A stretch of DNA of 64,000 nucleotides. Source: Arenicellales bacterium (GTDB lineage Bacteria; Pseudomonadota; Gammaproteobacteria; Arenicellales; JAJDZL01). The stretch is taken from the NCBI GenBank assembly GCA_958295885.1, contig OY282380.1:1884082-1948081 (forward strand), in the 5' to 3' direction. Positions within the stretch are counted from its first letter, which is position 1. Each line of letters begins with the position of its first letter. Under the pieces are notes generated by a model, which did no database searches, was not told the origin of the DNA, and worked only from the letters and a program-made list of their open reading frames with translations. Positions 6,415 to 36,689 of the stretch are shown one piece after another. The translations under genes and the position numbers were made by a program.

Positions 6415-7443
6415 GTGGTAAAGATTCCATTGGCCCGATATCGGCTGCGATTCCGGCTGCTGGATTCGACCTCCCAGGAACAGGCAAGAGCTCTGCAGAC
6501 ACATTACTTGGGATCGGCCTGGCGCGGCATGTTGGGAATGAATCTGAAGAAAACCGTATGCGTAACCCGATATCCGGTCTGTGACAATTGCCCTCTGCTG
6601 TATTCATGTCCATATCCGCAAATTTTTGAACACAGGCCTCCTCTAACCTCAGATAAACTGAAACGATATACGCATGCTCCAAATCCTTACGTACTGGAAC
6701 CAAGCAATTCAGATTTCGACCACAGCGGCCATTCAATCAGGCTGGGGCTGGTTTTAATCGGCAAAGCAAATCAATATCTGCCATACATCGTTTATTCTTT
6801 TGATCGAATTGCGCGGCACGGATTGACCAACAAGAGAATCAAACTGGAGCTGATCGATGTTCAATCAGAGCCATTGCATACTCAAGACCGTTCATCTTCA
6901 AGCAAGTGGGAAGTCATATACGAACCAGGTCAGCCTTTGGTCTCCAAATCTCCAGAGAGTCCCATGCCGCCCCAGGGAACAGAAATTGTAAAAGTGCAAC
7001 AAATAACGCCACTTCGCCTGAAAGTAAAAGGCGATTTGGTCGTTGCTGAGGAATTCAGTTTTCGGACATTTTTTGGCCATCTGCTTCGACGCCTGTCGCT
7101 GCTCTCTTATTTTTTCAGCGACACGCCTCTCGAAGTTGATTTCAAAGAACTGATAGAACGATCCAAAGCGGTCCGAATCCATAACCAAAATCTCAGATGG
7201 ATGGACTGGACGCGTCACTCCTCTCGGCAAAAAACCTATCTTAAAATGGGAGGACTGATCGGTTCATTCGAACTGCTGGGTCAGGAATTTCAGCCGTTTT
7301 TGCCGTATCTGTGGGCGGGGCAGTGGACACATTTCGGAAAAGGCTGCACCATGGGACTAGGACGCTACTTGCTTCAGCCAGTCGATCAGTCTGTCACTGA
7401 AAACAATCACTTCACCGACTGGAATTCTCCTCTGCCTTTATAG
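6415..7443 (+). CDS. cas6: CRISPR pre-crRNA processing endoribonuclease Cas6
   Basis: C-terminal G-rich loop HFGKGCTMGLGRY; N-terminal YLGSAWRG and Cys cluster; WTRHSSRQ. Confidence 0.9.
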   Translation: MVKIPLARYRLRFRLLDSTSQEQARALQTHYLGSAWRGMLGMNLKKTVCVTRYPVCDNCPLLYSCPYPQIFEHRPPLTSDKLKRYTHAPNPYVLEPSNSDFDHSGHSIRLGLVLIGKANQYLPYIVYSFDRIARHGLTNKRIKLELIDVQSEPLHTQDRSSSSKWEVIYEPGQPLVSKSPESPMPPQGTEIVKVQQITPLRLKVKGDLVVAEEFSFRTFFGHLLRRLSLLSYFFSDTPLEVDFKELIERSKAVRIHNQNLRWMDWTRHSSRQKTYLKMGGLIGSFELLGQEFQPFLPYLWAGQWTHFGKGCTMGLGRYLLQPVDQSVTENNHFTDWNSPLPL

Positions 7444-7469: not shown

Positions 7470-8651
7470 GTGTGTAAAACGAAGACAACTCAAAAGTCGC
7501 CTATCGGTTCGAATGCAACGAATCCAAGTGACTATCCACGGAGAGTTCTGCTTGTAACAACCGGACTTTCGCCGCAGGTCGTCACTGAGTCTCTATATGC
7601 ACTCGCAGTACGAAATAAACAAAAATTCTTACCAACGGAAATTCATCTGATCACAACGAAAATTGGCGCTGAACGAGCGTGTTCGTTTCTGCTTGGAGAC
7701 CAAGGGTGGCTGCCGCGATTCTGTCATGACTATAAAATATCAGGAATTCAGTTTGATCTGAATTTCATTCGGCCGTTGCTTGGAGCCGACGGCCAGCCTT
7801 TAGATGACATTCAAACTCCTGTCGACAATCAGCTGGCAGCTGACCAGATCACCAACTGCGTTCGCCAGTTGACCGCCGATCCTGATTCTGCGATTCACGC
7901 CTCCATCGCCGGCGGACGCAAGTCCATGGGTTTGTTTCTAGGATATGCACTTTCATTTTTTGGGCGGCCTCAGGACCGATTGAGTCACGTTCTGGTATCA
8001 CCGCCTTATGAGTCCAATCCAAATTTCTTTTATCCGCCTCCAAAAGATTATTTCATCCAAAACTCCCGTTCAGGTCATCAACGCATAAATGCAGCAGAAG
8101 CGGAAGTAAATCTTGCAGAAATCAAGTTTGTCAGGCTCAGAAATGAGATTCCAGCGCACGTGCTGGAAAACGCGGCCGTCTTTGACAGTGTCGTTGACAT
8201 TGCACAGCAAGTGATGAAGCCGGCAGAATTAATCATTGATTTGGAAGCGCAAAAAATCCAAGCATCGGGCAAAGCGATTAAAGCTTCGCCGGTAAATTTA
8301 GCTTTCTTTGCATGGCTGGCTCGAAACCAAAAAGCTGGAGGTTCCTGGGTAATCTGTCCCGTTGAAGAAGTGCGGGAACGAGAGCATGCAGACTCTTTCT
8401 TGAACGAATACCAGCGCATTAAGAGCAATGCAGCGAATTACATGCGTACGGTTAAGCGATTGGAAGGTGGGATGACACGCACGTTCTTTTCTCAGACGAA
8501 ATCGAAATTGAATCGGCAGCTGCGGGAAAAACTGCCGAATGAATCCATGCGCCCATATCTCATTGAGCGCAGGAGAGATGGGAACATTTGGCGTCATGGA
8601 TTCAATGTCGCCAGCGAAAACATTCACTTTGAAAAAATCAATTCGCTGTGA
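7470..8651 (+). CDS. csx14: CARF-family Csx14 (NE0113-like) putative ring nuclease with C-terminal extension
   Basis: LLVTTGLSPQVVTESLYAL, SIAGGRKSMG and DRLSHVLV motifs typical of the NE0113/Csx14 family. Confidence 0.82.
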   Translation: MCKTKTTQKSPIGSNATNPSDYPRRVLLVTTGLSPQVVTESLYALAVRNKQKFLPTEIHLITTKIGAERACSFLLGDQGWLPRFCHDYKISGIQFDLNFIRPLLGADGQPLDDIQTPVDNQLAADQITNCVRQLTADPDSAIHASIAGGRKSMGLFLGYALSFFGRPQDRLSHVLVSPPYESNPNFFYPPPKDYFIQNSRSGHQRINAAEAEVNLAEIKFVRLRNEIPAHVLENAAVFDSVVDIAQQVMKPAELIIDLEAQKIQASGKAIKASPVNLAFFAWLARNQKAGGSWVICPVEEVREREHADSFLNEYQRIKSNAANYMRTVKRLEGGMTRTFFSQTKSKLNRQLREKLPNESMRPYLIERRRDGNIWRHGFNVASENIHFEKINSL

Positions 8652-9154
8652 AGGCAGATTGTTCTAATGTCTCAGCTCAGATGCATTTAAGACTCTACAT
8701 GGAACTTTGATCATTTGATTGACATTATTAAATCAATTGGAGTATTCTCAGGAAAACATTCAGCATGAAACTCGATTAAGGAACGCTCTATTGAATCAGC
8801 GTCCGCTAAAGACAATCTCAGCACCCTTCGTTTATCCGGTTTCAGCGCACGACAGTACCCGATGGGCGTTCCCGTGACTGTAAGGATTTCGCTGCAGACT
8901 GCAGGAATCCGCACCGCATGGGAGGACGGTTGAAAATAATTTTCCAGCAATTCGGATCAAACGATTGGCCGTCCGGTAGAAGCGGACATCTTACGGCGAG
9001 AGCTCAAGTGCGGCAACAGTCAGTCGAAATTGGCTTGAGAATCAGTTCCAAAGATCTCTCGGTACGGTTGGAATTTGGAATGTAATCGAATTGTCCGTGA
9101 CAGCCGATCATTAAGGAGAAATGTAATTTAGCATAGAGCTGCCTCTCATATCGC

Positions 9155-9742
9155 TTAGGCGAAGATCCGATTCGCTATCGTACGTTCTTCCTGATCAACG
9201 GTTTGCGTATAAATCACTGTCGAATTGGTTGAACTGTTCCCGAGCCAGCGTACGACCAGGTGCAGCGGCGCTCCGGACTGTACTGCAGCTACACCAAAGC
9301 CATGTCGCAAGCCTTTCGGCGATGCCTGGGGCCATGGATGCCTGCGTCGTCGAGGATTCGTTAAGTATGCCGCCACGCTGTAGTACGAGAAAAGTTCCAC
9401 AGGCGCTCATCAGGCTGCCGTCTGAACTGACGTCGTCGCAAAGCGTGCGCGAGATCAAGATGTTCAATCAATATTGCTGGTACGGGTACTGTACTCCATT
9501 GTCCGCGTGTCTTTTTTTAAGGTCTCGAAACTCACGAGATGTTGATCGAGATCAACATTCCCGACAGTGAGAGCGAGCGCCTCTGAGACGCGGCAGCCCG
9601 AGTACAGCAGGGATTCTGCGAGCGTACGCGACGCAGCATCCTGACGTGGCGCGCATGCGAGGAAGTCCTTGCGCTCGGTAGTATTGATGAATTTTCGACT
9701 CCCGCGACGATCATATAAGAATGATGAAGTTGGCAGAGGCAC
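9155..9742 (-). pseudogene. Small tyrosine recombinase, frameshifted
   Basis: 5' piece LYDRRGSRKF...LYSGCRVSEAL (catalytic Arg); 3' piece in another frame, KGLRHGFG...WLGN...IY (the usual LGH His is Asn). Confidence 0.85.
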
Positions 9743-9804
9743 AATCGAAAATCAAGCGCAATCCTGCGTAATTGCAATCAGAAATCTCATAGGGGATATT
9801 CGAT

Positions 9805-9927
9805 GTGAAACATTATAGCTATATTGTTTCACTCTTGGTGAAAACCACTACGATTTAGGCGAGAATCAAGGGAATAACTGCGTACTAAGCTGTTGTTTAT
9901 GAAACAGAACAGTGCCGTTTTGTTTAA
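9805..9927. promoter_or_regulatory. Two related imperfect palindromes upstream of the recombinase (candidate binding/recombination sites)
   Basis: GTGAAACATTATAGCTATATTGTTTCAC (9805-9832) and TGAAACAGAAC-AGTGCC-GTTTTGTTTAA (9900-9927) share TGAAACA...TGTTT arms. Confidence 0.5.
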
Positions 9928-9971
9928 CAAGAATCCAGAGATTCCAATTTCAGATTCGCCTTTTCAGCATT

Positions 9972-10000
9972 TTGCAATCTATGCTGAATTGTGCAATAAT
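9972..10000 (+). promoter_or_regulatory. Sigma70-like promoter facing the structured unit
   Basis: TTGCAA-17 bp-AATAAT with an extended -10 TG at 9992-9993; predicted start near 10007. Confidence 0.5.
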
Positions 10001-10025
10001 GAAAGTACATTGAAATTGCCGGTGT

Positions 10026-10289
10026 AATCGCTTTTTGAACACTGGGCGCTTCCTAGGGGAGCGTAAGTATGACAGTGATTTCCGTTTGAAGCGGGAATGT
10101 TCTGTCGAAAGGTCCGGCCCTGATGTGGACGGATTCAGGCGGTAAAGTCCTAATGGATTGTTGCCGAGAAAAAACCGCGGTAACAGGCGGTTTTCAGCAG
10201 CGGTGAAAGCCGCATAAACCCTTCCGGGGAATTGTTTCCCTGGAAAGGGTGTGATTCCTCCGGAGCAACTCCTAGTAGGAGGGAAAATA
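10026..10289 (+). ncRNA. Candidate large structured RNA, 5' arm
   Basis: Nearly back-to-back hairpins with G-U pairs: 10047-10063, 10071-10106, 10171-10194, GCGGT-GAAA-GCCGC 10200-10213, 10218-10250, and 10255-10261/10278-10284. Confidence 0.55.
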
Positions 10290-10721
10290 ATGAGCAATGA
10301 TGCTAGGTATGTAACTCGAGAAGATCTGGCCTACGCAGAGCGTGTCGCCACGCTTGAAGTGATGGCAGCTGACTTCAAAGAGTTCAGCAAAAGCGCTGAA
10401 AAGCGCTACGAGCGACATCAAAGGTTCAATATTAGATTGATCGTTGGCGTTCTGTTAGTGGTTGCAGCTGCTTTTTTCACGGCAGCTCTCAACACCTTTG
10501 AAGTTAGCACAAGTTTGGCTAACTTGACAGTCAAAGTTGGCAACATTGAACGTGATGTCGCAGGCCTGAAGACCGATGTCGCATTTTTGAAAGAGAACGC
10601 GGTGTTGAAGTCGGATACTGCGTTCATCAAGCAGCAGGTGTATGAAGTCTTGGATGAAACCGGACTGCTCCGACTTGTTGAAACTGCTCCCCAGACCCAC
10701 GAGGGTAGCTTAGAGGAGTAA
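10290..10721 (+). CDS. Small single-TM coiled-coil protein of unknown function (143 aa from ATG 10290)
   Basis: GGAGG SD at 10278-10282; TM LIVGVLLVVAAAFFTAAL; heptad-like VAGLKTD/VAFLKEN/AVLKSD/TAFIKQQ. Confidence 0.72.
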   Translation: MSNDARYVTREDLAYAERVATLEVMAADFKEFSKSAEKRYERHQRFNIRLIVGVLLVVAAAFFTAALNTFEVSTSLANLTVKVGNIERDVAGLKTDVAFLKENAVLKSDTAFIKQQVYEVLDETGLLRLVETAPQTHEGSLEE

Positions 10722-11118
10722 AAGCAAACGAATCCTTCGTTGGCTCTTTACAACCCACGCTGGGAGAAGCGGGCGCGGTGAGCGGAACCTGATTCGAACC
10801 GAATATATTTCGGTAGTGGTCATGCGCGCGTAACCTTCGAGGCGGTAACACCCCAAGTAGAAATGCATGACTTACCCGAGGGACCGCAACCTTGGGAAAT
10901 GAAGCCGCTTGTCGGGGTAAGGCTGCAGCTTATGAAACCCGACAAAGCCAACCCTAGGACGCAAACACCGGGACACTATCTAGGTCGCGGCAATGGATAG
11001 TGCAGTCAAAAGCTGAGACTGGAGTGAACTTGTGAACCCAGGAGCTGGCAGGGATAGCAGCCTGCTTTATCTTGCCTCTTCAGGCAAACAAAGTTAGAGT
11101 TCAAAGGAGCAGTTGATT
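10722..11118 (+). ncRNA. Candidate large structured RNA, 3' arm
   Basis: Stems at 10727-10741, 10798-10814, 10819-25/10865-71, 10875-10896, 10909-16/10938-45, 10974-80/10996-11002 and 11047-11076; 11099-11110 can pair with 10030-10040. Confidence 0.55.
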
Positions 11119-12482
11119 TTGCCATTGGGCGAAAAAATCCGCAGGAGCACTCGTCCCTTTTTGCTTATTTTCGTGCGTTTCTCAATGTAATCGATTGTCT
11201 TTTTCAGTGCTTCCATTTTGAACCCTCCTGCAGCAAGTTTCGTGCGTGACTTTCATTTTGAATTCAATAATTTCAGTAATTTACTGAATGTTCGTACGAT
11301 TTTCGTAAGGATGAGTCGTCGATTCAGTCGAATTTTTCTTGGATATTGAGTTCGTCGTGAACTCTGCTAGACAACACGATTGGAGCTCGGGCTGTACCGG
11401 TCGGAAATTCAAACTCGACTTCTGAGTTTGACCAATGGTTCGGCAACGAAGCGAAGTTGACTTGAGTGCTGGCATTTCGTTGGTGGCGGAAATTGCTCTT
11501 CAGCTTGCCGATTGGTTTGTGGTTGTTTACGTTCGGCATCGCTGATCGGCTTTCTGATTTCCTTAGGTCGTCAATTGACGAAATTAACGGTTACGATCAT
11601 CATAGTGTCAAAATTAATTCGCATTTTATTCATCAGAAGTGTCGTATGTTAATCAAGCAATTTGCTGTGATTTCTGCTGATTGTATCAATGTGTCCTGCT
11701 GACGGCACCCGGCAACATCGCATGCATGTTGCGCCCGGAGCTGTCGCAGATCAATGAGTCTGGATTCCTGACCCCGGAAATTCCGCTGTCTCGCAGTTCA
11801 TCACATCTTAGTTTCCAAAATGGCAACTGAGTTTTCAGCATTGGCCAATTTTCTTGCGAGCATGGATATCTTCACCGCATTTGACGTACCTGAAATACCG
11901 CGGAAAATTCAAACAAAAGAACAGAACTCAACATTACCTTCAAGCGGGTATTTTCAGACTGTAAACGGGCTATAATAAATCCAGCCTTAATTTCAATTTA
12001 TTTCAACGAGTTACATAACGACTAGAAGAACGAAGAGTCACTCGGGTCAGAGTGACGCGGTACAAAAGTTGCATTGGCGTAGTTTCGATATGTCCGACTG
12101 AGACATGAAATTTCCGGGAATATTTTGGAGAGCGTGCGAGGCTTCTGAAATATTGTTGTTGATGCCCGACAGTTCTTATGTCTGCCAGAATTATTCATAG
12201 ATTTGGAAAGGAGAAAATTTCGGGCGTCTGGAAAGATTGCCGACATGTTTCCGCTTCAGCCCGCATTTCTTGCCCAGCTTGCGCGAATGAGGCAAGAACC
12301 CCTGGGGCGGCTGTCTGAGTGAGATGCCGGAGAGTGGCAACGTTGCCAACCCACAGATGCTAAAAATTGTAATTATCATTGCAGTTGAAATGAGATTGCA
12401 GCCTCATGCGTTTTCAGTCGTTTTCTTTAGTTCTGGTTGCGAGGCAGTTAAGTACAGGAGTTAAAAAGTTGGGGCAAAGGAC

Positions 12483-15017
12483 ATGGTAATGAATCAAAAC
12501 TGTCAAATCGCTCTTGCAGGGCTTCTCAGCGGTATTGGAGATTTTGCTGAGCGTGCTGTTTGGAGGCCGCAAGAACGCGAATCTTACGCTGAGTTGGCGC
12601 TGGAAGAAATTCTTCAGTACCTGCCATCATCGTCTATCACAGAAGGCGACCAGGCTGCTGAAGAAGCAGCTAATACTGCTTTAGCAAGATTGGTTCTAAG
12701 TCAGGAAAATTCGGATGTTCTGCTTCACTGGATCGTCAATGCTGCGAGGAAGGCAGCTTATGGACAATCGCATGACCGAACTTCAGCGTCGGATTTGCAT
12801 GAAACTTCGCAACGGACGACGATTCTGAGTCCATATACGACGCGGCTCTGCTGTCTGTTCGAACAAATTGATTCGGCTGAAGGCAATTCGGACAAGAAAG
12901 AACCAAAAACTTTACGGTATCGGTATTCCCTAAGTCCCTACAACCTAGCGAGCATGTTTCCAGTCGACGCCAAATCAACCGAATCGAATAGTGAATTCAT
13001 GGGGCATAGGCAATACGTTGATCTTTGGAATAGCTTTAAAAGTTCATGCGAATTAATCCCAGAATCACACCAAGAAATTCTTCCACTATGGTTAGACAGC
13101 TTCAATTCATTGCTGATGACCTTTGCTCATGCAGTTCCTTCAAAGTCAAACAGCGGGATTCACGCCAAAACTTCCCTTTATGACCATTCTCGCGTTGTCG
13201 CAGCGCTCACAGTCGCACTTTGGAATTTTCATAAGAGCCGTCAAAGTAACGAAGAGGCAGAAATTCGCACTCTCAAACAAGGCGCTGACTGGAACGAAGA
13301 CAAGTTCTTATTCATTCAAGGCGATCTTTCCGGAATTCAGAATTTCATTTTTACAACCGGTGGCAAATCAACCAAATACGCGGCCAAACTTCTGCGGGGC
13401 CGTTCCTTTTATGTGAGCCTTCTTTCAGAATGCGCTGCGCTTCGAATTCTGGAAGAATTGGATCTGCCGCCGACGAGTCAGGTATTGAACGCAGCAGGAA
13501 AATTTACAATCGTCGCTCCGAATTCCGAAGCGACAGTTTCAAAATTATTGGCATTGCGAAAGGTATTTGATGAATGGTTTCTCAAGTTCACTTATGGTCA
13601 GACGGGCATTGGCATCGCTTGGACGGCAGCTTCGTGCGCTGATCTGGAGAAAGGTGAAGGTGACGATAGCTCATTCAGGAAACTGCTGAGAAAACTCTTT
13701 GGTGAATTAGACGAAACGAAATTTCAAAAATTCAATCTTTGCGGAGAAAATTCTCCCGACCCGATTATCAATCCGGATTACCTGAGCGCCTATCGCAAGT
13801 ATGGACTTTGCGAAATCGATGGCCATCTGCCCGCGGATCATCGTCCAGGACGCGGCAATTCATCCGACCCAAAGATCAGCTTAAGTCAATTGGCGGAAGA
13901 TCATTTAAGGATCGGAGAAATTATCGTACGAAAACAAGGAGTCAGCCGAATTTATATTTCTAAGCGAAAACTGCGAAGTTCAAATCTGGAGCATTTGAAT
14001 TTAGATCTGTTTGGCTTCTGGGCAGCGTTTGCAAAAACAGAAATAAATGCAGATTTATCGAGTGAAATTCTAGACAAAGAGGAGCTGTTGCGAGTATGGG
14101 ATTTTTCTTTGCCGTCAGACTCGGCCAAATCACTTTTCAATGGTTTTGCAAGACGAAATGTGAATGGATGGGTTCCAAGCGATGACAACGGAGTAAAAGA
14201 TTTCGAGTCGATTGCGGACGCAAGCGAAGGCATTAAGGCACTGATGACCCTGAAAGGAGATGTAGATAATCTTGGAGCGATATTTCAACAGAGTCTGAAG
14301 TTTTGCAGTCTGACGGACTGGACTGCTCTGTCGCGTCAGATAGACGCCTTTTTTACCGTATACCTGCCCTCTCTGTGTCAAGCTCGATATGAAAATTCAT
14401 ACACGGTATTTGCCGGCGGCGACGACTTCATGTTAATTGGACCATGGGCCCAACAAATGAGGCTCGCTGATCGAATGAGGAAGGAATTTGCCCGGTATGT
14501 AGCGAGTAATTCAGCCATCAGCTATTCCGCGGGCCTGGCCATGACAAAGCCAAATATTCCTATTCAATTTTTGGCATCACTGTCCGAGGAAGCTGTGGAA
14601 ATGTCGAAAAGCCATGAAACTGAAGATTCTGAAAAGAATGCGGTGACCTGCTTTGGTCAAACGGTCGACTGGAATTCCTATTCCGCGATGCTGCAGTCTC
14701 AAGAGCGCCTTCAGCAGCTTGCAGCTGAAGGAAATTTGAGCACATCGTATTTCTACGGTTTGCTTCAGTTCGCGGAAATGGAAGAACGTTTAAATTCTGA
14801 TGCCGCTCACAAGTCGATTAGAAACGCGTTATGGCGCTCGCAATTCTACTATCGCACATCTCGACTTCTAGAACAGAATGTTAAGCAGCCATCTGAGCGA
14901 GACAAAATTCTGAACAGACTTGTTGAAGAATTCATTGAAAAAGGAATTAGAAAATATCAGGGCAATTACAAAATCGCATTGCACCATCACTTATATCGAT
15001 TGCGAAACAAGGAGTGA
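12483..15017 (+). CDS. cas10: Type III-A Cas10/Csm1, Palm GGDD intact, HD motif lost
   Basis: GDLSGIQNFIF, LRGRSFY, KGDVDNLG, FAGGDDF; the N-terminus reads LLSGIGDF where LLHDIGKF is expected. Confidence 0.95.
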   Translation: MVMNQNCQIALAGLLSGIGDFAERAVWRPQERESYAELALEEILQYLPSSSITEGDQAAEEAANTALARLVLSQENSDVLLHWIVNAARKAAYGQSHDRTSASDLHETSQRTTILSPYTTRLCCLFEQIDSAEGNSDKKEPKTLRYRYSLSPYNLASMFPVDAKSTESNSEFMGHRQYVDLWNSFKSSCELIPESHQEILPLWLDSFNSLLMTFAHAVPSKSNSGIHAKTSLYDHSRVVAALTVALWNFHKSRQSNEEAEIRTLKQGADWNEDKFLFIQGDLSGIQNFIFTTGGKSTKYAAKLLRGRSFYVSLLSECAALRILEELDLPPTSQVLNAAGKFTIVAPNSEATVSKLLALRKVFDEWFLKFTYGQTGIGIAWTAASCADLEKGEGDDSSFRKLLRKLFGELDETKFQKFNLCGENSPDPIINPDYLSAYRKYGLCEIDGHLPADHRPGRGNSSDPKISLSQLAEDHLRIGEIIVRKQGVSRIYISKRKLRSSNLEHLNLDLFGFWAAFAKTEINADLSSEILDKEELLRVWDFSLPSDSAKSLFNGFARRNVNGWVPSDDNGVKDFESIADASEGIKALMTLKGDVDNLGAIFQQSLKFCSLTDWTALSRQIDAFFTVYLPSLCQARYENSYTVFAGGDDFMLIGPWAQQMRLADRMRKEFARYVASNSAISYSAGLAMTKPNIPIQFLASLSEEAVEMSKSHETEDSEKNAVTCFGQTVDWNSYSAMLQSQERLQQLAAEGNLSTSYFYGLLQFAEMEERLNSDAAHKSIRNALWRSQFYYRTSRLLEQNVKQPSERDKILNRLVEEFIEKGIRKYQGNYKIALHHHLYRLRNKE

Positions 15018-19086: not shown

Positions 19087-20319
19087 ATGCATATCTTAAT
19101 TTCTTTTGTTGGTGCGCCATTTAAAGGCAACAAAACTTACGATGAAGTTGTTTACAGTTTTCCTGATGGCAGTGAAGGGGGAAAAACAAAATTATTTGCG
19201 AAGAATTTAATTTCGCGATGCAAGCCTGACCGGGTTGTGTTTCTGGGCACATCCGGAAGCAATTGGGAGTCGGTATTAGAAATTGCGGATTTAGAACAAA
19301 AGTCAGAGCTGGAAGCAATGGCAATCATTGACAGCGAGAGGGGGCAAACGTTAGAGAATGCCCTACATGATTACCAGAGATGCCTTTCAGATAAAGTGGA
19401 CTTTGATTTGCGATTGAAATTAATCCCTTTCCCTGCATACGAACTATCCGAACAGCTGGAAATTCTTCAAGTGATGGCCGAAATTTCTGAAAACTGCACT
19501 CAGATGACATTAGATGTCACTCATGGTTCTCGTCTTCTTCCGATGATCGGTATGGTCGCCGCAGTTTATTTAAATTCGATTAGAAACGTCGAACTTCGAG
19601 GCTTATGGTACGGTTCCTATGACCGGAGATCAAAAGTTGAAGGTCAGTCCGGCAGGGGAAAAGCTTTCAATGTAGAAGGACTAACAACGCTCTTTGATTG
19701 GATACAGGCATTGAGCGCTCACCAATATAGCGGTAATTTTGGAGTATTTGAAGAATTGCTTGAAGGTCCAATTCAAGAACTGAATGAAAATATACGAGTT
19801 GACTCCCTGTCGAAAGCCGCCTACAACGAACGGATTACGCGGGACAATAATGCGTATTATGAAATTGCTCAAATTAATGCATTGTTAAGACGCAGAGAAT
19901 TTAGCGGAATTGCGAGCTTGTTTCAGCCAACCCTTAGGGACCGGCTTGATTGGGCGCGTGACAATAGGCGCTCGGCAAGGCAGGAAAAACTCGCGAGGCA
20001 CTACTATGAGCATGGTGACTACTTACGAGCGGTAATTTATGCAAAAGAGTCTGTGATTACACGAATCTGTGAAGAGCGTGAAATTGACACGAAAAGATAC
20101 AGCAATCGACGTGAAGCTACGGAAATATTAGATCTCGAAAATTCATCGAGTTACAGGTTGATAAATGCCATCCGAAACGCGATGGCACATGGAACGGAAC
20201 CGAATTGCCCAGAGGCAAGAAGATGCCTGCAGAACGAAAATGAATTAAGACAGGTTATTGAGAACTTTCTTGATGAATGGATGATACTGCCAGTTGGTGT
20301 GGTTGACCGTTGCCAATAA
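19087..20319 (+). CDS. csx1: CARF-HEPN ribonuclease (Csx1/Csm6-like cOA effector)
   Basis: LISFVG, GTSGSNW and LDVTHGSRLLP CARF motifs; C-terminal RNAMAH (R-X4-H HEPN). Confidence 0.88.
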   Translation: MHILISFVGAPFKGNKTYDEVVYSFPDGSEGGKTKLFAKNLISRCKPDRVVFLGTSGSNWESVLEIADLEQKSELEAMAIIDSERGQTLENALHDYQRCLSDKVDFDLRLKLIPFPAYELSEQLEILQVMAEISENCTQMTLDVTHGSRLLPMIGMVAAVYLNSIRNVELRGLWYGSYDRRSKVEGQSGRGKAFNVEGLTTLFDWIQALSAHQYSGNFGVFEELLEGPIQELNENIRVDSLSKAAYNERITRDNNAYYEIAQINALLRRREFSGIASLFQPTLRDRLDWARDNRRSARQEKLARHYYEHGDYLRAVIYAKESVITRICEEREIDTKRYSNRREATEILDLENSSSYRLINAIRNAMAHGTEPNCPEARRCLQNENELRQVIENFLDEWMILPVGVVDRCQ

Positions 20320-24092: not shown

Positions 24093-24199
24093 GATTAGAG
24101 GTGAATCTTGCAGATTTTGAGGTTAGCTTTTTTCAGAACTGGATATTGTACAACCCATTTTGTAAATATTTGTTTTGAAAGGTGTAATATCGAGTTAGA
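24093..24199 (+). promoter_or_regulatory. CRISPR leader
   Basis: AT-rich non-coding stretch between cas2 and the first repeat; the degenerate repeat is at the far end of the array. Confidence 0.65.
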
Positions 24200-24942
24200 G
24201 TTAGAAACTTAGACCTGTTAGAGAAGGGATTGAAACAAAAATTTATTGTGTTATGCCAATTCACCATGTTAGAAACTTAGACCTGTTAGAGAAGGGATTG
24301 AAACTATTAATAACCGCGCTATCACCATCCTTTTGTTGTTAGAAACTTAGACCTGTTAGAGAAGGGATTGAAACTGCGTTTTTAGCGCTAGAGTTTATAT
24401 ATGGAGAGTTAGAAACTTAGACCTGTTAGAGAAGGGATTGAAACGGACGCTCTATTGCCTTCATCACTCCGCTTTGATGTTAGAAACTTAGACCTGTTAG
24501 AGAAGGGATTGAAACTCATCAGTTTGCACACCAGCCTCCGCGCGAACAGTTAGAAACTTAGACCTGTTAGAGAAGGGATTGAAACTCAGATTGAGGCATG
24601 TTTGCATCTGTCCCCAGTTGTTAGAAACTTAGACCTGTTAGAGAAGGGATTGAAACGATGGCATTGATGATTGTTTTCGCAGTCGAAAGCCGTTAGAAAC
24701 TTAGACCTGTTAGAGAAGGGATTGAAACATCAAAGAGCGTCAAGGTATCGGCGCTTTTTCGCCGTTAGAAACTTAGACCTGTTAGAGAAGGGATTGAAAC
24801 CTCCTTATGTGGACTTCGTCAGGCAGGTCTCAAGTTAGAAACTTAGACCTGTTAGAGAAGGGATTGAAACGTTTCAGTTTTGTCTATTTTGACACTATTT
24901 GGGGTGTTAGAAACTTAGACCTGTTAGAGAAGGGATTGAAGC
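24200..24942 (+). CRISPR. CRISPR array: 11 repeats of 37 bp, 10 spacers of 31-35 bp
   Basis: Repeat GTTAGAAACTTAGACCTGTTAGAGAAGGGATTGAAAC starts at 24200, 24268, 24338, 24408, 24479, 24549, 24620, 24692, 24764, 24834 and 24906; the last copy ends ATTGAAGC. Confidence 0.99.
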
Positions 24943-34265: not shown

Positions 34266-36689
34266 CTACCTATACAGTACAAATTGGGGCTTGACTTTTA
34301 AAATTCGAGCTGGTACATTTGAACATCATGTATCAGCAGAATCAAATTCCGCGCAAGCTGAGGTCAGCATCTGGTCTGGAGCAGTTGCAGTCGATCCTGG
34401 CAACGCGCAGTTTTGCGAATCGTACGGAATTGACGCATGCGGTGTGTGAGGAGTTTGGATTTTACGATGCGCGGGGTAAAGCGCAGGTGACGAGCAGTCT
34501 TCGGGTGCTGCGGGATCTGGAGCAGACGGGTCGGATCGAGCTGCCGGCTTCGAGTCGTACGGTGCGCCAGGTAAAGGCGCGTGGATTGGGACAGGCGGTG
34601 GCCTTGGCGCAGGGAGTGCCGGCGCGGGTGGATCAGGTCAGTGGTTTGCAGCTGTTGCTGGTTGAAGAGGAATCGCAGTTGCGTCTGTGGAACGAGCTGA
34701 TGATTCGCGAGCATCCGCGAGGAGCGGCAGTTCATGTAGGCTGTCAGCTGCGATATCTGGCAGTGTCTGAGCATGGCTATTTGGGTGCGCTGGGATTTGC
34801 GTCGTCGGCGCTGGCGCTGCGCAGTCGAGACCAGTGGATGGGCTGGGATGCAGAGTTGAAGTCTCGACATTTAAATCGAGTGATCGGCATGAGTCGGTTC
34901 CTGATCCGGCCTTCGGTGCGCTGTCAGAATCTGGCGTCGAAGGTGTTGGGTCTGTGTCTGCGTCGAGTCGGCAGGGATTTCAAGAGTCGCTATGGATTTG
35001 ATCCGTATTTGGTGGAGACGTTTGTGGATGGGTCTCACAGTGGGGTATCGCTGCGAGCATCGAACTGGCGCCATGTGGGCTGGACGACGGGTCGCGGTCG
35101 ATTTGGGGGCAAGTCTGATCCGGCGGCTGTGAAGTCGGTGTATATCTATGAATTAGAACGGAAATGGCGAACGTATCTGGGGTTGGACAAGGTTTGCGTC
35201 CCGGTGCGTGACAGAGGTCGGGGACTAGCGATTGATGAATGGTCGGAGCAGGAATTTGGAGGTGCGCCGTTGGGTGATGAGCGTCGCAGCAGAAGACTGG
35301 TGAAAAGTGCGGACATCCAGGCTCGGCAGCCGATGGAGCCGTTCACGGCTGCGTCCAGGTCGGATCAAGCGGCGGTGCATGCGCATTATCGTCTGCTGGA
35401 TCAGCCGGCGGAATCGGCGGTGACGCCAAAGAACATCTTGGCGCCGCATCGACAGCGAACGCAGGAGCGAATGCAGGCACAGTCGGAAGTTTTGTGCGTG
35501 CAGGATGGCACCGATTTGAATTTCGCCAATCACGGTGGCTGTCAGGGCATGGGCTTGATCAGTCGCAACCGCAAATCGGCTGGCACCATGGGGATTCACA
35601 TGCATTCGCTGCTGGCGCTTGATGCGCAGGGAGTGCCGTTGGGGGTGCCGCACATTGAATATGGCCATCTGGATGACGAGGGCACCAAGACGCAGCGATG
35701 GCTGCGCGGGCTGCGTGCGAGCGCAGAGTTGGCGGCGCCGCTTGAAAAGGTGCGGATGGTGGCGGTGATGGATCGCGAGGCGGATTGTTTTGAGGTGATG
35801 GCCGAGTGTCGAAGGCTGTCAGATGTGGAGTTGCTGGTGCGCGCCCAGCATAATCGAAGTCAAGGCAAAGGCCAGCCGAAGATGTTCGATGCGATCCGCG
35901 GGCAACGTGCGCAGGCGAGTCTGGAAGTGCCGGTGTTGGCGCGTTCGGCGCGCCGCAGCAGCCGCAGTCAGAAGGCGATGTCGAAGCAGCCGGCGCGGAT
36001 GGCGCAGGTCGAGTTGCGCTGGCGTCAGGTGCAGATTCAGCCGACGCGCGGTTTTTCGGGTGAGAAACCGCTGAGGTTGAATCTGGTTCATGTGTATGAA
36101 GCAAAAGCAGGCGACGCGGTCAAGCCGCTGGAGTGGTTTCTGCTGACCAGTCTGGCGGTCAACAGCGCGCACGATGCGACGCAAGTAGTACAGCGTTATC
36201 GGCTGCGTTGGCGAATTGAGGATTGGCACAAGATTTTGAAATCCGGCTGCAAGGTGGAGTTTCTCAAGCATCGCAAATGCGAGCGCATCGAACGTGCGGT
36301 CACCATCAACGCGGTGATTGCTTGGCGGCTTGCGGCGATGACGCTGCTGGGCCGAGAAACCCCGGAATTGCCGATGGAAGTGCTGTTTAGCGAGACCGAA
36401 ATCGGTGTATTGAAGGACTTCGCACGCCAAAATCGCAAAAAAGTGCCACAAAATCTCGGCGCCGGCGTGGTGACGATGGCCATGCTCGCCGGTTATTTGA
36501 ATCGTAAAAATGATCCACCACCGGGTTACAAGAAGATCTGGGAAGGCTATAGCATGCTGACAACAATGGCGCGGACTTATGATTTGGCTCTGTACATGGC
36601 AGCCCAAAAAGAAAGCTGGTTTCACCATAACTTAAAAGATTGGATTCAACATAAGTTAAGTCCAGACTGAATTTGTACGGAATAGGCAG
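34266..36689 (+). mobile_element. IS4-family (IS50/Tn5-like) element, copy 1, 2424 bp
   Basis: TIR CTACCTATACAGTACAAATT / AATTTGTACGGAATAGGCAG (17/20); 8-bp duplication CTTGCGGC. Confidence 0.95.
34319..36670 (+). CDS. IS4 transposase with N-terminal DUF4338/DruA-like domain
   Basis: N-terminal RDQWMGW...SRFLIRP...NLAS...LVETFVD...NWRHVGWTTGRG; C-terminal FGGAPLGDER, QDGT, MDREAD, YRLRWRIEDWHKILKSG. Confidence 0.92.
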   Translation: MNIMYQQNQIPRKLRSASGLEQLQSILATRSFANRTELTHAVCEEFGFYDARGKAQVTSSLRVLRDLEQTGRIELPASSRTVRQVKARGLGQAVALAQGVPARVDQVSGLQLLLVEEESQLRLWNELMIREHPRGAAVHVGCQLRYLAVSEHGYLGALGFASSALALRSRDQWMGWDAELKSRHLNRVIGMSRFLIRPSVRCQNLASKVLGLCLRRVGRDFKSRYGFDPYLVETFVDGSHSGVSLRASNWRHVGWTTGRGRFGGKSDPAAVKSVYIYELERKWRTYLGLDKVCVPVRDRGRGLAIDEWSEQEFGGAPLGDERRSRRLVKSADIQARQPMEPFTAASRSDQAAVHAHYRLLDQPAESAVTPKNILAPHRQRTQERMQAQSEVLCVQDGTDLNFANHGGCQGMGLISRNRKSAGTMGIHMHSLLALDAQGVPLGVPHIEYGHLDDEGTKTQRWLRGLRASAELAAPLEKVRMVAVMDREADCFEVMAECRRLSDVELLVRAQHNRSQGKGQPKMFDAIRGQRAQASLEVPVLARSARRSSRSQKAMSKQPARMAQVELRWRQVQIQPTRGFSGEKPLRLNLVHVYEAKAGDAVKPLEWFLLTSLAVNSAHDATQVVQRYRLRWRIEDWHKILKSGCKVEFLKHRKCERIERAVTINAVIAWRLAAMTLLGRETPELPMEVLFSETEIGVLKDFARQNRKKVPQNLGAGVVTMAMLAGYLNRKNDPPPGYKKIWEGYSMLTTMARTYDLALYMAAQKESWFHHNLKDWIQHKLSPD

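What the first reader, a model, noticed from the sequence alone, without database searches (positions are those of the whole stretch)
10007..11118. Candidate large ornate RNA with a protein-coding gene in its middle
Seen: downstream of a plausible sigma70 promoter there are ~260 nt of nearly continuous hairpins (one with a GAAA tetraloop), then a 143-aa ORF, then ~400 nt more of nested stems. The 5' arm has competing pairings GTCC/GGAC and CCTGA/TCAGG that could form a pseudoknot. CCTGA 10788-92 can close the 3' arm with TCAGG 11080-84, and GCTTTTTGAAC 10030-40 can pair with GTTCAAAGGAGC 11099-110 to close the whole unit. Many stems rely on G-U pairs on the + strand, which argues for selection at the RNA level. 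I found no tRNA, tmRNA, RNase P or intron catalytic motifs. Established: GOLLD-class RNAs have structured 5' and 3' domains joined by a variable linker that can hold tRNAs. Inference: a GOLLD/ROOL-like or new large ncRNA carrying an mRNA cargo, sitting inside an RNA-targeting CRISPR locus.
Basis: partly seen in the sequence, partly recalled or inferred. Interest (0 to 1): 0.88.

Follow-up and report, generated by a model that had tools for sequence, protein, structure and literature searches.

The report
Repeated structured leader–gene–RNA cassette
The flagged stretch is one copy of a multi-copy expression cassette in which a long, hairpin-rich RNA leader and, in some copies, a second structured RNA flank small membrane-protein genes; both RNA elements match no described family, but it is not a GOLLD/ROOL-type giant RNA.

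Summary
Window 9972-11076 holds a sigma70-like promoter, a ~280-nt leader of consecutive hairpins (fold z -5.96), a real 143-aa coiled-coil/transmembrane ORF, a ~330-nt conserved 3' element ('arm3') and a terminator-like hairpin. It is one of 10 leader copies in this genome and 18 in one congener (G009). With the leader's 5'-half model, no credible match was found in 29 other genomes of the genus or in order and class samples. Leader helices P1-P4 show strong covariation (22 of 30 pairs compensated; 0 of 500 shuffles reach it). A conserved anti-SD pairs with the Shine-Dalgarno sequence. G-U outnumbers A-C about 4:1, pointing to plus-strand RNA. The ORF differs between copies (CCDC90-like, a 'VTREE' family, one other). 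Arm3 occurs in only 9 units (7 full), also shows compensatory changes, and in 4 units precedes a STIV-B116-like gene. Not supported: GOLLD/ROOL membership (no Rfam hit), the proposed helices closing the unit, the pseudoknot, and any tie to CRISPR. The copy lies in a decayed integrase-bearing insertion that splits the type III locus. Best reading: a lineage-specific mRNA with a new cis-regulatory leader that sequesters the SD, plus a separate structured 3'/intergenic RNA. The trigger is unknown.

The parts
9155..9742 (-). Decayed tyrosine-recombinase gene, divergent from the cassette. It survives as two frame fragments, 9464-9742 and 9155-9400.
   Evidence: Pfam Phage_integrase scores 24.5 bits (profile 3-65) and 25.4 bits (profile 125-171), E 2.5e-5 and 1.4e-5. 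Both are just under the 27.1-bit cut-off. A paralogous stretch lies elsewhere in the genome.
9972..10000 (+). Sigma70-type promoter: TTGCAA, 17-nt spacer, AATAAT with an upstream TG. The transcription start is inferred near 10007.
   Evidence: It is the only promoter-like site in 9800-11400. The same -35 / extended -10 arrangement lies at the same distance upstream of the other leader copies. The start site is inferred, not mapped.
10007..10289 (+). Structured 5' leader. Helices: P1 10019-10045, P2 10047-10063, P3 10071-10106, P4 10113-10133, variable hairpins 10139-10213 (including the GAAA-loop hairpin 10200-10213), P7 10219-10249, and P8 10255-10285, which pairs the anti-SD UUCCUCC with the SD GGAGGGAA.
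   Evidence: Fold z -5.96. Models R1 and R2 match this copy at 100.2 and 65.6 bits. Covariation is shown. The G-U excess is shown.
10290..10721 (+). 143-aa ORF: N-terminal coiled coil, one transmembrane helix, heptad repeats (DVAxLKT) and a conserved C-terminus. This is the 'VTREE' family, which has no Pfam family.
   Evidence: Four proteins match at E <= 0.001 among 80 candidates, at 100, 99, 95 and 48% identity. Paralogs exist in G000 and G009. An in-frame 21-nt/7-aa repeat polymorphism is seen in P0003 and in an RNA-library contig. Pfam gives only a sub-threshold coiled-coil hit.
10723..11048 (+). Arm3, a conserved structured 3' element. Helices: S1 10725-10743, S2 10755-10778, and the core S4-S7 at 10870-11020.
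   Evidence: nhmmer finds 5 copies in G000 and 2 full plus 2 partial copies in G009, all downstream of a leader+ORF on the same strand. Model R3 scores this copy at 123.9 bits. Compensatory changes are shown. It is not coding: there is a frameshift between copies and no start codon (by inspection).
11047..11076 (+). Terminator-like hairpin with a U-rich tail, the probable 3' end of the transcript.
   Evidence: It is the only terminator-like site in 9800-11400. Its function is inferred.
11151..11688 (-). A dispersed repeat outside the cassette. It holds a truncated 40-aa ORF at 11094-11216. It is not part of the RNA unit.
   Evidence: 77% identity over 543 nt to G000 1305359-1305889. No Pfam family.

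Best explanation
Window 9972-11076 is one copy of a lineage-specific, multi-copy expression cassette. It consists of a sigma70 promoter, a ~280-nt 5' leader built of consecutive hairpins (conserved P1-P4, a variable middle, P7, P8), a small membrane-anchored coiled-coil protein gene, and, in a minority of copies, a second ~330-nt structured RNA (arm3).

The leader acts in cis on the mRNA. Its last hairpin pairs a conserved CCUC-type anti-SD with the Shine-Dalgarno sequence, so translation is off by default. It would be released by an unknown trigger acting on the conserved upstream hairpins, such as temperature, a ligand, a protein or an sRNA.

Arm3 is a separate module: a structured 3'-UTR or intergenic RNA. 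In 4 of its 7 full copies it lies between the small ORF and a STIV-B116-like gene. It is not the other half of one closed RNA.

The window copy is part of a decayed integrase-bearing insertion that split a type III CRISPR-Cas locus between csx1 and cas10.

Shown: copy number, conservation, covariation, strand asymmetry, anti-SD:SD complementarity, the variety of ORFs, and presence in RNA libraries. Inferred: the transcription start, the transcript's 3' end, translational control, and the roles of the trigger and of arm3.
For: Copies. Model R1 (leader 5' half) finds 10 matches in G000 and 18 in G009. Three of 31 genomes of the genus have a match at E <= 0.01, the third being a marginal one at E 0.0098. 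In the order sample, 5 of 151 genomes match, three of them marginal at E 0.007-0.01. In the class sample, only G000 matches of 151.

Covariation in the 5' half. In the MAFFT alignment of 17 copies, 87.6% of cells are paired against 40-48% when partners are slid, with 73 doubly changed cells and 0 of 500 shuffles as high. In the model-fitted alignment of 27 distinct copies, 88.8% are paired, 22 of 30 pairs are compensated, there are 127 doubly changed cells, and 0 of 500 shuffles reach the observed value on any of the five measures.

The 3' half, 24 distinct copies. 85.6% of cells are paired, and the anti-SD:SD helix is 90.3% paired. That helix appears in most single-sequence MFE folds of the 17 copies folded (my count from the printed folds, about 10).

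Strand. G-U against A-C is 87:22 and 78:18.

The promoter is conserved at a fixed distance from the leader.

ORFs. Of 22 loci with an R2 match, 11 carry a CCDC90-like ORF (PF07798, 40.4 bits for L054), 8 a 'VTREE'-type ORF, 1 another type, and 2 none.

Arm3. In 7 copies, 88.8% of cells are paired against 33-46% slid, 13 of 28 pairs are compensated, and 0 of 500 shuffles reach the observed value on 4 of 5 measures. All 9 arm3 copies follow a leader+ORF. A B116-like gene lies downstream in U3, U4, U5 and V9.

RNA. Contigs of RNA libraries from 3 studies cover the leader and ORF. One 1544-nt contig spans 10041-11549.
Against: No trigger or alternative 'on' structure could be identified. The only extra conserved complementarity found is between the SD and the P7 5' strand CUUCC.

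The anti-SD and SD barely vary, so that helix rests on conservation, not covariation: 1 of 6 pairs shows a change on both sides.

The RNA evidence comes from assembled contigs. They cannot show starts, ends or strand. The runs with long contigs also cover the silent-looking flanks, so DNA carry-over is not excluded.

Two of the covariation alignments were fitted to the model, and the copies are paralogs from only two genomes, so shuffle statistics overstate independence.

Terminator-like hairpins are not consistently found after other units, so transcript ends are unknown.

The window's arm3 alone folds no better than shuffles.
Confidence: 0.6

Rival explanations
1. It is one large functional RNA. 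The 5' and 3' arms act together around an mRNA 'cargo', either as a GOLLD/ROOL-like ornate RNA or through hok-mRNA-style 5'-3' fold-back control.
For: All 9 arm3 copies lie downstream of a leader+ORF on the same strand. Only one promoter-like and one terminator-like site bracket the whole unit in the window. RNA-library contigs bridge the ORF-arm3 junction: X1 covers 10041-11549 and X6 covers 10554-10877. The ORF between the arms differs between copies.
Against: Only 9 of the 28 leader copies are followed by arm3. No conserved inter-arm helix exists: the only two 6-column runs are GC/GU-rich and use strands already paired in P1 and S2. The proposed closing helices lie outside the conserved element. 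No Rfam large-RNA family matches. The leader has no conserved junction or long-range helix. In 4 units arm3 is followed by another gene, as an intergenic region would be.
Confidence: 0.1
2. The conserved elements work mainly at the DNA level. They would be recombination sites or ends of a mobile gene cassette, like an elaborate attC-type site, moved by the nearby tyrosine recombinases. Their apparent RNA structure would then be single-stranded-DNA structure.
For: The elements are multi-copy with a very narrow distribution. Different ORFs sit between the same elements. Tyrosine-recombinase genes or fragments lie within 1.5 kb of several units: U3, U10, V8, V9, Vd, Ve and the window copy. A B116-like (DUF1874) gene is associated, recalling the DUF1874 motif, which Weinberg et al. 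2017 discuss as a possible unusual attC (PMC5737381, passages read). A tRNA gene lies 70 nt beyond one arm3.
Against: The leader keeps a fixed register with a promoter upstream and an SD and start codon downstream. The roughly 4:1 excess of G-U over A-C is expected for RNA of this strand, although G-T also forms in ssDNA. The Rfam DUF1874 motif does not match. No cassette arrays with an integron-type integrase at one end were seen, and no direct repeats flanking units were looked for.
Confidence: 0.1
3. The units are type I toxin-antitoxin-like modules. A membrane-active small protein would be kept silent by its heavily folded mRNA, with an undiscovered antisense or trans sRNA.
For: The products are small single-pass membrane proteins. 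The SD is sequestered in the mRNA. Many copies occur in a narrow lineage. One CCDC90-like member gives a weak PHROG 'hemolysin' (XhlA-like) hit at 1e-9.
Against: The products are 60-167 aa long coiled-coil proteins, not peptides under 60 aa. The commonest ORF type belongs to the widespread CCDC90-like family. No promoter-like site lies on the minus strand in 9800-11400. There is no 5'-3' fold-back. PADLOC gives only coiled-coil noise.
Confidence: 0.08
4. It is chance hairpins or decayed coding/IS sequence with no function.
For: The cassette sits in a 3.8-kb gap littered with dispersed repeats and an integrase pseudogene. The window's 3' arm alone folds no better than shuffles.
Against: Twenty-eight copies show compensatory base changes. 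The promoter and SD geometry is conserved. The ORFs are intact, with an in-frame repeat polymorphism. The unit is present in RNA libraries.
Confidence: 0.02

Closest known systems
Long structured cis-regulatory 5' leaders with an SD-sequestering hairpin (riboswitch expression platforms, RNA thermometers)
   Same: The leader lies between a promoter and the start codon on the coding strand. Its helices are conserved and covary. A terminal hairpin pairs an anti-SD with the SD.
   Different: No Rfam family matches. At about 280 nt with roughly 8 local hairpins and no conserved multi-stem junction, it is much larger than known thermometers and unlike compact aptamers. No ligand or trigger is known. 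It precedes unrelated ORF families in 28 copies confined to two genomes.
GOLLD / ROOL / OLE large ornate RNAs
   Same: The total conserved structured RNA is of similar size, about 600 nt in two blocks. Variable material lies between conserved 5' and 3' parts. The units lie near mobile-element genes and, once, near a tRNA.
   Different: No covariance-model match. The middle is a translated gene with its own SD. The two blocks occur independently and show no conserved mutual pairing. The leader has no conserved junctions or pseudoknots. For GOLLD and ROOL themselves I saw only search listings and abstract starts and passages of PMC5737381.
hok/sok-type (type I toxin) mRNAs
   Same: A heavily folded mRNA for a small membrane protein, with the SD masked, in many genomic copies.
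   Different: The proteins are far larger and are coiled coils. No 5'-3' fold-back pairing is conserved. No antisense promoter was found. The features of hok/sok are recalled, not checked in a paper here.
DUF1874 RNA motif / attC-like arrays (Weinberg et al. 2017, PMC5737381)
   Same: A multistem conserved element alternates with ORFs. It is associated with DUF1874 (STIV-B116-like) genes, and recombinases are in the neighbourhood.
   Different: The Rfam search gave no such match on the window or on six arm3 loci. That the motif is in Rfam is recalled. Arm3 lies upstream of a B116-like gene in only 4 of 7 full copies. The strand asymmetry of G-U pairs, measured on the leader, favours RNA.

Membership tests
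GOLLD / ROOL / OLE / HEARO (large ornate ncRNAs) | A match to the family's Rfam covariance model | tested here: not met
   The whole window gives 0 matches at gathering score. Window 9000-12600 at E <= 10 gives 4 chance-level hits of 17.5 bits or less, none to these families. Thirteen paralog loci give none. That these families are in Rfam 15 is recalled.
GOLLD / ROOL / OLE / HEARO (large ornate ncRNAs) | A complex fold with multistem junctions, long-range helices and pseudoknots | tested here: not met
   A column-pair scan over 22 leaders found no conserved helix beyond the local hairpins. No leader-arm3 helix was found. The pseudoknot is no better than shuffles.
GOLLD / ROOL / OLE / HEARO (large ornate ncRNAs) | A non-coding RNA whose linker, if any, holds tRNAs and not a translated gene | tested here: not met
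   The middle is a conserved ORF with an SD and an in-frame polymorphism. The window has no tRNA.
GOLLD / ROOL / OLE / HEARO (large ornate ncRNAs) | Homo-oligomeric RNA-only assemblies (cryo-EM) | not testable with these tools
   This needs purified RNA. I saw only the abstract start of PMC12286853.
Group I / group II introns | A match to intron covariance models, that is, the catalytic domains | tested here: not met
   There is no hit in the window. The group II models work here: they detect an unrelated ORF-less intron in L020 at 152.3 bits.
Cis-regulatory structured 5' leader (a kind, not a named family) | Lies between a promoter and the start codon of the downstream gene, on the same strand | tested here: met
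   The promoter is at 9972-10000 and the ATG at 10290. The other copies have the same layout.
Cis-regulatory structured 5' leader (a kind, not a named family) | A conserved secondary structure supported by compensatory changes | tested here: met
   22 of 30 pairs are compensated, 88.8% of cells are paired against 38-50% when slid, and 0 of 500 shuffles are as high. An alignment not fitted to the model gives 87.6% paired and 0 of 500.
Cis-regulatory structured 5' leader (a kind, not a named family) | An expression platform that can mask the SD or terminate transcription | tested here: met
   The anti-SD:SD helix is 90.3% paired in 24 copies. It is present in most single-sequence MFE folds of the 17 copies folded (my count, about 10). 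That it actually regulates is inferred.
Cis-regulatory structured 5' leader (a kind, not a named family) | A defined trigger (ligand, temperature, protein or sRNA) | not testable with these tools
   No alternative 'on' helix was found. CsrA is excluded as a partner, since G000 has no CsrA gene and the control genomes do respond.
Type I toxin-antitoxin (hok/sok-like) | A hydrophobic toxin peptide, typically under 60 aa | tested here: not met
   The ORFs are 60-167 aa and mostly coiled coil with one transmembrane helix. The commonest type is CCDC90-like.
Type I toxin-antitoxin (hok/sok-like) | An antisense or overlapping antitoxin sRNA | tested here: inconclusive
   No promoter-like site lies on the minus strand in 9800-11400. 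The RNA data are contigs without strand information.
Integron attC / DUF1874 motif | A match to the described motif, and cassette arrays bounded by an integron integrase | tested here: not met
   There is no Rfam match. Tyrosine recombinases are nearby but scattered and were not typed as IntI.
Integron attC / DUF1874 motif | A structure that acts as single-stranded DNA | tested here: inconclusive
   G-U against A-C at 87:22 and 78:18 favours plus-strand RNA, but G-T pairs can form in ssDNA. Settling this needs an experiment.

The most novel reading that the evidence does not exclude
The leader and arm3 are the two RNA (or ssDNA) 'ends' of a new kind of mobile expression cassette. It would be a self-contained module that is shuffled between sites by the associated tyrosine recombinases, and in which different small membrane-protein genes are swapped between the same two ornate elements. 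The ends would work together, either as an elaborate attC-like recombination substrate or as a bipartite RNA device that gates translation of whatever gene lies between them.
Probability: 0.12. Interest if true: 0.8.

Novelty: new variant of a known kind. Interest (0 to 1): 0.55.

Why it matters
The analysis yields two candidate RNA families that match no Rfam family.

- The first is a ~280-nt leader with eight or so hairpins, present in 28 copies. Its covariation is strong for a lineage known only from metagenome-type assemblies.
- The second is a ~330-nt structured 3'/intergenic element.

The same leader is wired to unrelated small coiled-coil membrane proteins, including bacterial CCDC90/MCUR1-like proteins whose function is unknown. 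That suggests a shared regulatory signal for a whole set of envelope proteins, and it gives a handle for studying them.

The leader, gene and 3' element combine in different ways and lie near recombinases. This makes the system a possible example of regulatory RNA travelling with gene cassettes.

The value is limited by the very narrow distribution: two species, plus a divergent trace in a third. The trigger is also unknown.

For the scan, the case shows that a 'GOLLD-like' reading of hairpin-rich UTRs should be tested against paralogs before it is believed.

Tried and rejected
- The search of earlier findings was not open.
- Protein-seeded locus searches in genome contigs and metagenome contigs found no relative: 302 and 411 pattern hits, none confirmed.
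- The weak Rfam RT-3 hit (16.7 bits, E 0.78) is chance. It is absent from 7 other leader loci at E <= 1.
- RNAduplex of whole leader against arm3 gave only meaningless long looped duplexes. It was replaced by the column-pair scan.
- The RNAalifold long-range helix on the first 8-sequence alignment (columns 82-91 with 287-295) had no compensatory change and did not recur in the 22-copy scan.
- CsrA/Rsm binding of the conserved GGA that follows the anti-SD was rejected: G000, 97.6% complete, has no CsrA gene.
- A weak RsmW hit on one copy (28.8 bits, E 0.26) is likewise chance-level.
- My own terminator scan of 28 units gave no consistent terminator after the ORF or after arm3.
- There is no orthologous type III locus to compare for an empty site: cas10 was found only in G000 of 31 genomes.
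- In the two low-depth RNA runs (X8, X10) only 10026-10725 is covered and arm3 is not. Absence of cover is not evidence.
- Arm3 as a coding region was rejected. Its open frames shift between copies, for example U2 against U3-U5 after the CAACCCTAAGAC block, and they lack start codons (by inspection).
- PADLOC, PHROG and NCBIfam scans of the ORFs gave mostly coiled-coil noise.
- The exact-pattern scan for arm3 over about 185,000 species found only G009. It sees only near-identical copies.
Full report
SETTING. The window lies in a single-contig genome of 4.42 Mb, G000. The record title that the tool prints for its congener G009 reads 'MAG: Arenicellales bacterium'. Around the finding lies a type III CRISPR-Cas locus:
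- cas6 at 6415-7443
- a Cas_NE0113/Csx1-like gene at 7470-8651
- cas10/csm1 at 12483-15017
- csm2 and three RAMP genes up to 18783
- a CRISPR array at 24197-24871.

Between csx1 and cas10 there is a 3.8-kb gap (8651-12483) whose only long ORF is the one in the finding.

CHECK OF THE OBSERVATION. The promoter is real as a consensus match. TTGCAA-17 nt-AATAAT with an upstream TG at 9972-10000 is the only promoter-like site in 9800-11400. The only terminator-like hairpin there is at 11047-11066, followed by a U-rich tail.

The 5' arm folds far better than chance. Window 10025-10290 gives -111.8 kcal/mol against -82.95 +/- 4.84 for shuffles, z -5.96, with 0 of 200 shuffles as good. The minus strand gives z -4.16. 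The fold contains a GAAA-loop hairpin at 10200-10213.

The 3' arm does not fold better than chance: z -1.32 with 11 of 100 shuffles as good, and z -0.99 on the minus strand.

No tRNA or tmRNA was found. The whole window has no Rfam family at gathering score. Window 9000-12600 gives only four chance-level hits at E <= 10.

THE ORF IS A GENE. The 143-aa product has an N-terminal coiled coil, one transmembrane stretch, heptad repeats and a conserved C-terminus. A search of 5.8 billion proteins returned 4 proteins at E <= 0.001 among 80 candidates: itself, and relatives at 99%, 95% and 48% identity. The 95% relative has one extra heptad. An RNA-library contig carries the matching in-frame 21-nt insertion after 10553. 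Paralogs exist in G000 and in G009. Pfam offers only a sub-threshold coiled-coil match.

THE KEY RESULT: THE FINDING IS ONE COPY OF A REPEATED UNIT. A piece of the 5' arm (10167-10231) matched two other places in G000. Both lie directly upstream of small coiled-coil ORFs. Aligning the regions upstream of paralogs showed that the whole ~280-nt leader is homologous, from the promoter to the start codon.

A covariance model of the 5' half (R1; P1-P4; 143 positions) finds 10 copies in G000 and 18 in G009. It finds nothing credible in the other 29 genomes of the genus: 3 of 31 genomes match at E <= 0.01, and the third is a single match at E 0.0098. In an order-wide sample, 5 of 151 genomes match, three of them marginal at E 0.007-0.01. 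In a class-wide sample, only G000 matches of 151.

The 3'-half model (R2) finds 8 copies in G000, 14 in G009, and one divergent copy in a third congener, G044, at E 3.9e-5. In G044 a P7-like hairpin and a CCUCU...GGAGG hairpin precede two different small ORFs.

STRUCTURE OF THE LEADER. The copies share the following parts:
- P1, a 7-bp stem with a conserved loop containing GCxUUUxAA
- P2
- P3, with outer and inner stems around an internal loop
- P4, whose loop reads CUGAnGU
- a variable set of hairpins, including GNRA-loop hairpins (GAAA, GCAA and GUAA in different copies)
- P7
- P8, in which a CCUC-type anti-SD pairs with the SD.

On a MAFFT alignment of 17 copies that was not fitted to any structure, 87.6% of cells are paired against 40-48% when partners are slid. 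There are 73 doubly changed cells against 9-28 in the slid controls, and 0 of 500 shuffles reach the observed covariation.

On the model-fitted alignment of 27 distinct copies, 88.8% of cells are paired. Twenty-two of 30 pairs carry compensatory changes, there are 127 doubly changed cells, and 0 of 500 shuffles reach the observed value on any of the five measures.

The 3' half is 85.6% paired in 24 distinct copies, and the anti-SD:SD helix is 90.3% paired. That helix hardly varies, so it is supported by conservation and not by covariation. It appears in most single-sequence MFE folds of the 17 copies folded (my count from the printed folds, about 10).

Across modelled pairs, G-U/U-G outnumber A-C/C-A by 87:22 and 78:18.

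A scan of all column pairs over 22 leaders found no further conserved helix. The only addition is that the SD is also complementary to the CUUCC of the P7 5' strand. The leader is therefore a string of local hairpins and not a junction-rich fold.

THE 3' ARM. A profile of the 3' arm finds 5 copies in G000, and 2 full plus 2 partial copies in G009. All 9 lie downstream of a leader+ORF on the same strand. A model of its core (R3, 190 positions) finds the same 7 full copies and none in the other 29 genomes of the genus. An exact-pattern scan over one genome each of about 185,000 species found only G009.

Per-helix listings show compensatory changes in S1, S2, S4, S5 and S7. On the fitted alignment of 7 copies, 88.8% of cells are paired against 33-46% slid, 13 of 28 pairs are compensated, and 0 of 500 shuffles reach the observed value on 4 of 5 measures.

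Arm3 is not coding. Its open frames shift between copies and lack start codons (by inspection).

In the window, arm3 runs from 10723, directly after the stop codon, to about 11048. The terminator-like hairpin overlaps its end.

ARE THE TWO ARMS ONE RNA? Only 9 of the 28 leader copies are followed by arm3, 7 of them full.

In the 7 full units, a search for columns of the leader that pair with columns of arm3 found only two 6-column runs. Both are GC/GU-rich, and both use strands already engaged in P1 and S2.

These lie outside conserved arm3 and beyond the terminator-like site. Their partner 10030-40 is the P1 loop.

The proposed P4 pseudoknot is no better than shuffles (4.38 against 4.04).

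In 4 of the 7 full copies (U3, U4, U5, V9), arm3 is followed after about 150-180 nt by a STIV-B116-like (PF08960) gene, scoring 38.1 and 48.4 bits against a cut-off of 26. There arm3 behaves as an intergenic region of an operon. In another unit a convergent tRNA gene follows it.

I therefore read arm3 as a separate module that accompanies some cassettes.

WHAT SITS BETWEEN. I examined the 22 loci with an R2 match:
- 11 carry a CCDC90-like (formerly DUF1640) protein with a C-terminal membrane anchor and a variable number of repeats. PF07798 scores 40.4 bits against a cut-off of 33.5 for L054, and 24.2 bits, below the cut-off, for L060.
- 8 carry the 'VTREE' type, to which the window's ORF belongs.
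- 1 carries a third type.
- 2 have no ORF.

NCBIfam, PADLOC and PHROG scans add little beyond coiled-coil noise.

EXPRESSION. Runs on record as RNA from several studies hold parts of the stretch. I laid four of them, from three studies. Two low-depth runs cover only 10026-10725, which is the leader plus the ORF. Two runs of one study carry contigs that bridge ORF to arm3, including a 1544-nt contig over 10041-11549. Those two runs also cover the flanks of the gap, so DNA carry-over cannot be excluded. Contigs show neither ends nor strand.

CONTEXT AND THE CRISPR QUESTION. The gap also holds two fragments of a Phage_integrase-family gene on the minus strand at 9155-9742. They score 24.5 and 25.4 bits, just under the 27.1 cut-off, and the gene is divergent from the cassette. 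The gap further holds several dispersed repeats with copies elsewhere in the genome.

Tyrosine-recombinase genes or fragments also lie near U3, U10, V8, V9, Vd and Ve.

cas10 occurs once in G000 and was found in none of the other 30 genomes of the genus, G009 included. Twenty-seven of the 28 copies therefore have no cas10 neighbour. The location inside the CRISPR locus looks like the scar of an insertion.

MECHANISM. Shown: a conserved promoter, a conserved and covarying leader, an SD-masking hairpin, and intact downstream ORFs.

Inferred: the leader keeps translation off until some signal remodels or unmasks P8. I could not identify the signal. No alternative helix is conserved. CsrA is not encoded. 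No known riboswitch model matches. The highly conserved loops of P1 and P4 are the best candidates for a contact site.

Rivals are listed separately with odds: a single large RNA, DNA-level cassette ends, and a type I toxin-like module.

COMPARISON WITH WHAT IS KNOWN. The closest kind is a structured cis-regulatory leader with an SD-sequestering platform. The closest in appearance are GOLLD and ROOL, whose membership tests fail. The closest in genomic behaviour is the DUF1874 motif, which Weinberg et al. describe as a multistem element alternating with ORFs and discuss as a possible unusual attC site (PMC5737381, passages read). No such match was found here.

A full-text search for 'DUF1640' returned 13 papers. 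Judging by their titles and abstract starts, none concerns an RNA element (listing only). I made no other literature search for this leader, so 'not described' rests on Rfam 15 and that one search.

VERDICT. They are better explained as a modular mRNA, with a regulatory leader and an optional 3'/intergenic RNA, that belongs to a lineage-restricted and probably mobile gene-cassette family. A single GOLLD-like RNA explains them less well. The interest is moderate: the covariation is strong and the architecture unusual, but the distribution is narrow and the trigger is unknown.

Noticed in passing
window 8651-12483: The type III CRISPR-Cas locus is split between csx1 and cas10 by a 3.8-kb stretch. 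The stretch is made of dispersed repeats (8820-9107, 9337-9718, 11151-11688, 11717-11924, each with copies elsewhere in G000), integrase pseudogene fragments and the cassette. It looks like the remains of an integrated element.
   Followed up: partly
window 10540-10600 (ORF heptad region): The DVAGLKT heptad array varies in length between near-identical strains. There is an in-frame +21 nt insertion after 10553 in an RNA-library contig, and +7 aa in protein P0003. Paralogs carry very different numbers of 7- and 11-residue repeats, which suggests slippage-driven variation in stalk length.
   Followed up: partly
L020 550-1173 (G009): An ORF-less group II intron (Rfam D1-D4-6 at 152.3 bits and domain V/VI at 40.4 bits) ends a few bases before a leader copy.
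   Followed up: no
promoter spacers of copies U2, U5, U7, V5, V10 (listing): The spacer between -35 and -10 holds an inverted repeat (GCACTC-n5-GAGTG followed by TATG/TGTGA). It closely resembles the P2 hairpin plus the following junction of the leader itself. It may be an operator or the trace of a duplication. It is absent from the window copy.
   Followed up: no
P3 of the G009 'V-type' leaders (e.g. L033 5892-6155, minus strand): The internal loop reads GA on one strand and GAUGA on the other, between two stems. This fits the kink-turn consensus as I recall it. The other leader types do not have it.
   Followed up: no
L092 1380-1610 and 2160-2300 (G044): A third species of the genus carries two adjacent divergent versions of the leader's 3' module (a P7-like hairpin plus a CCUCU...GGAGG hairpin). 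They lie in front of two unrelated small ORFs, so the SD-masking module is older or more mobile than the P1-P4 part.
   Followed up: partly
G000 units U3, U4, U5 and G009 unit V9 (L043, L044, L045, L039): A conserved module reads leader, CCDC90-like gene, arm3, then a STIV-B116-like (DUF1874) gene. In several cases a convergent tyrosine-recombinase gene or fragment follows.
   Followed up: partly
window 34319-36670 (+) and 41619-43970 (-): Two inverted copies of a 783-aa ORF combine a DruA-like N-terminal region (98.5 bits) with Tn5-type transposase domains. They could bracket a composite transposon. The equally long ORF at 58172-60523 is an unrelated P-type ATPase.
   Followed up: partly
window 19087-20319: A 410-aa ORF directly after the csm genes has no Pfam family.
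   Followed up: no
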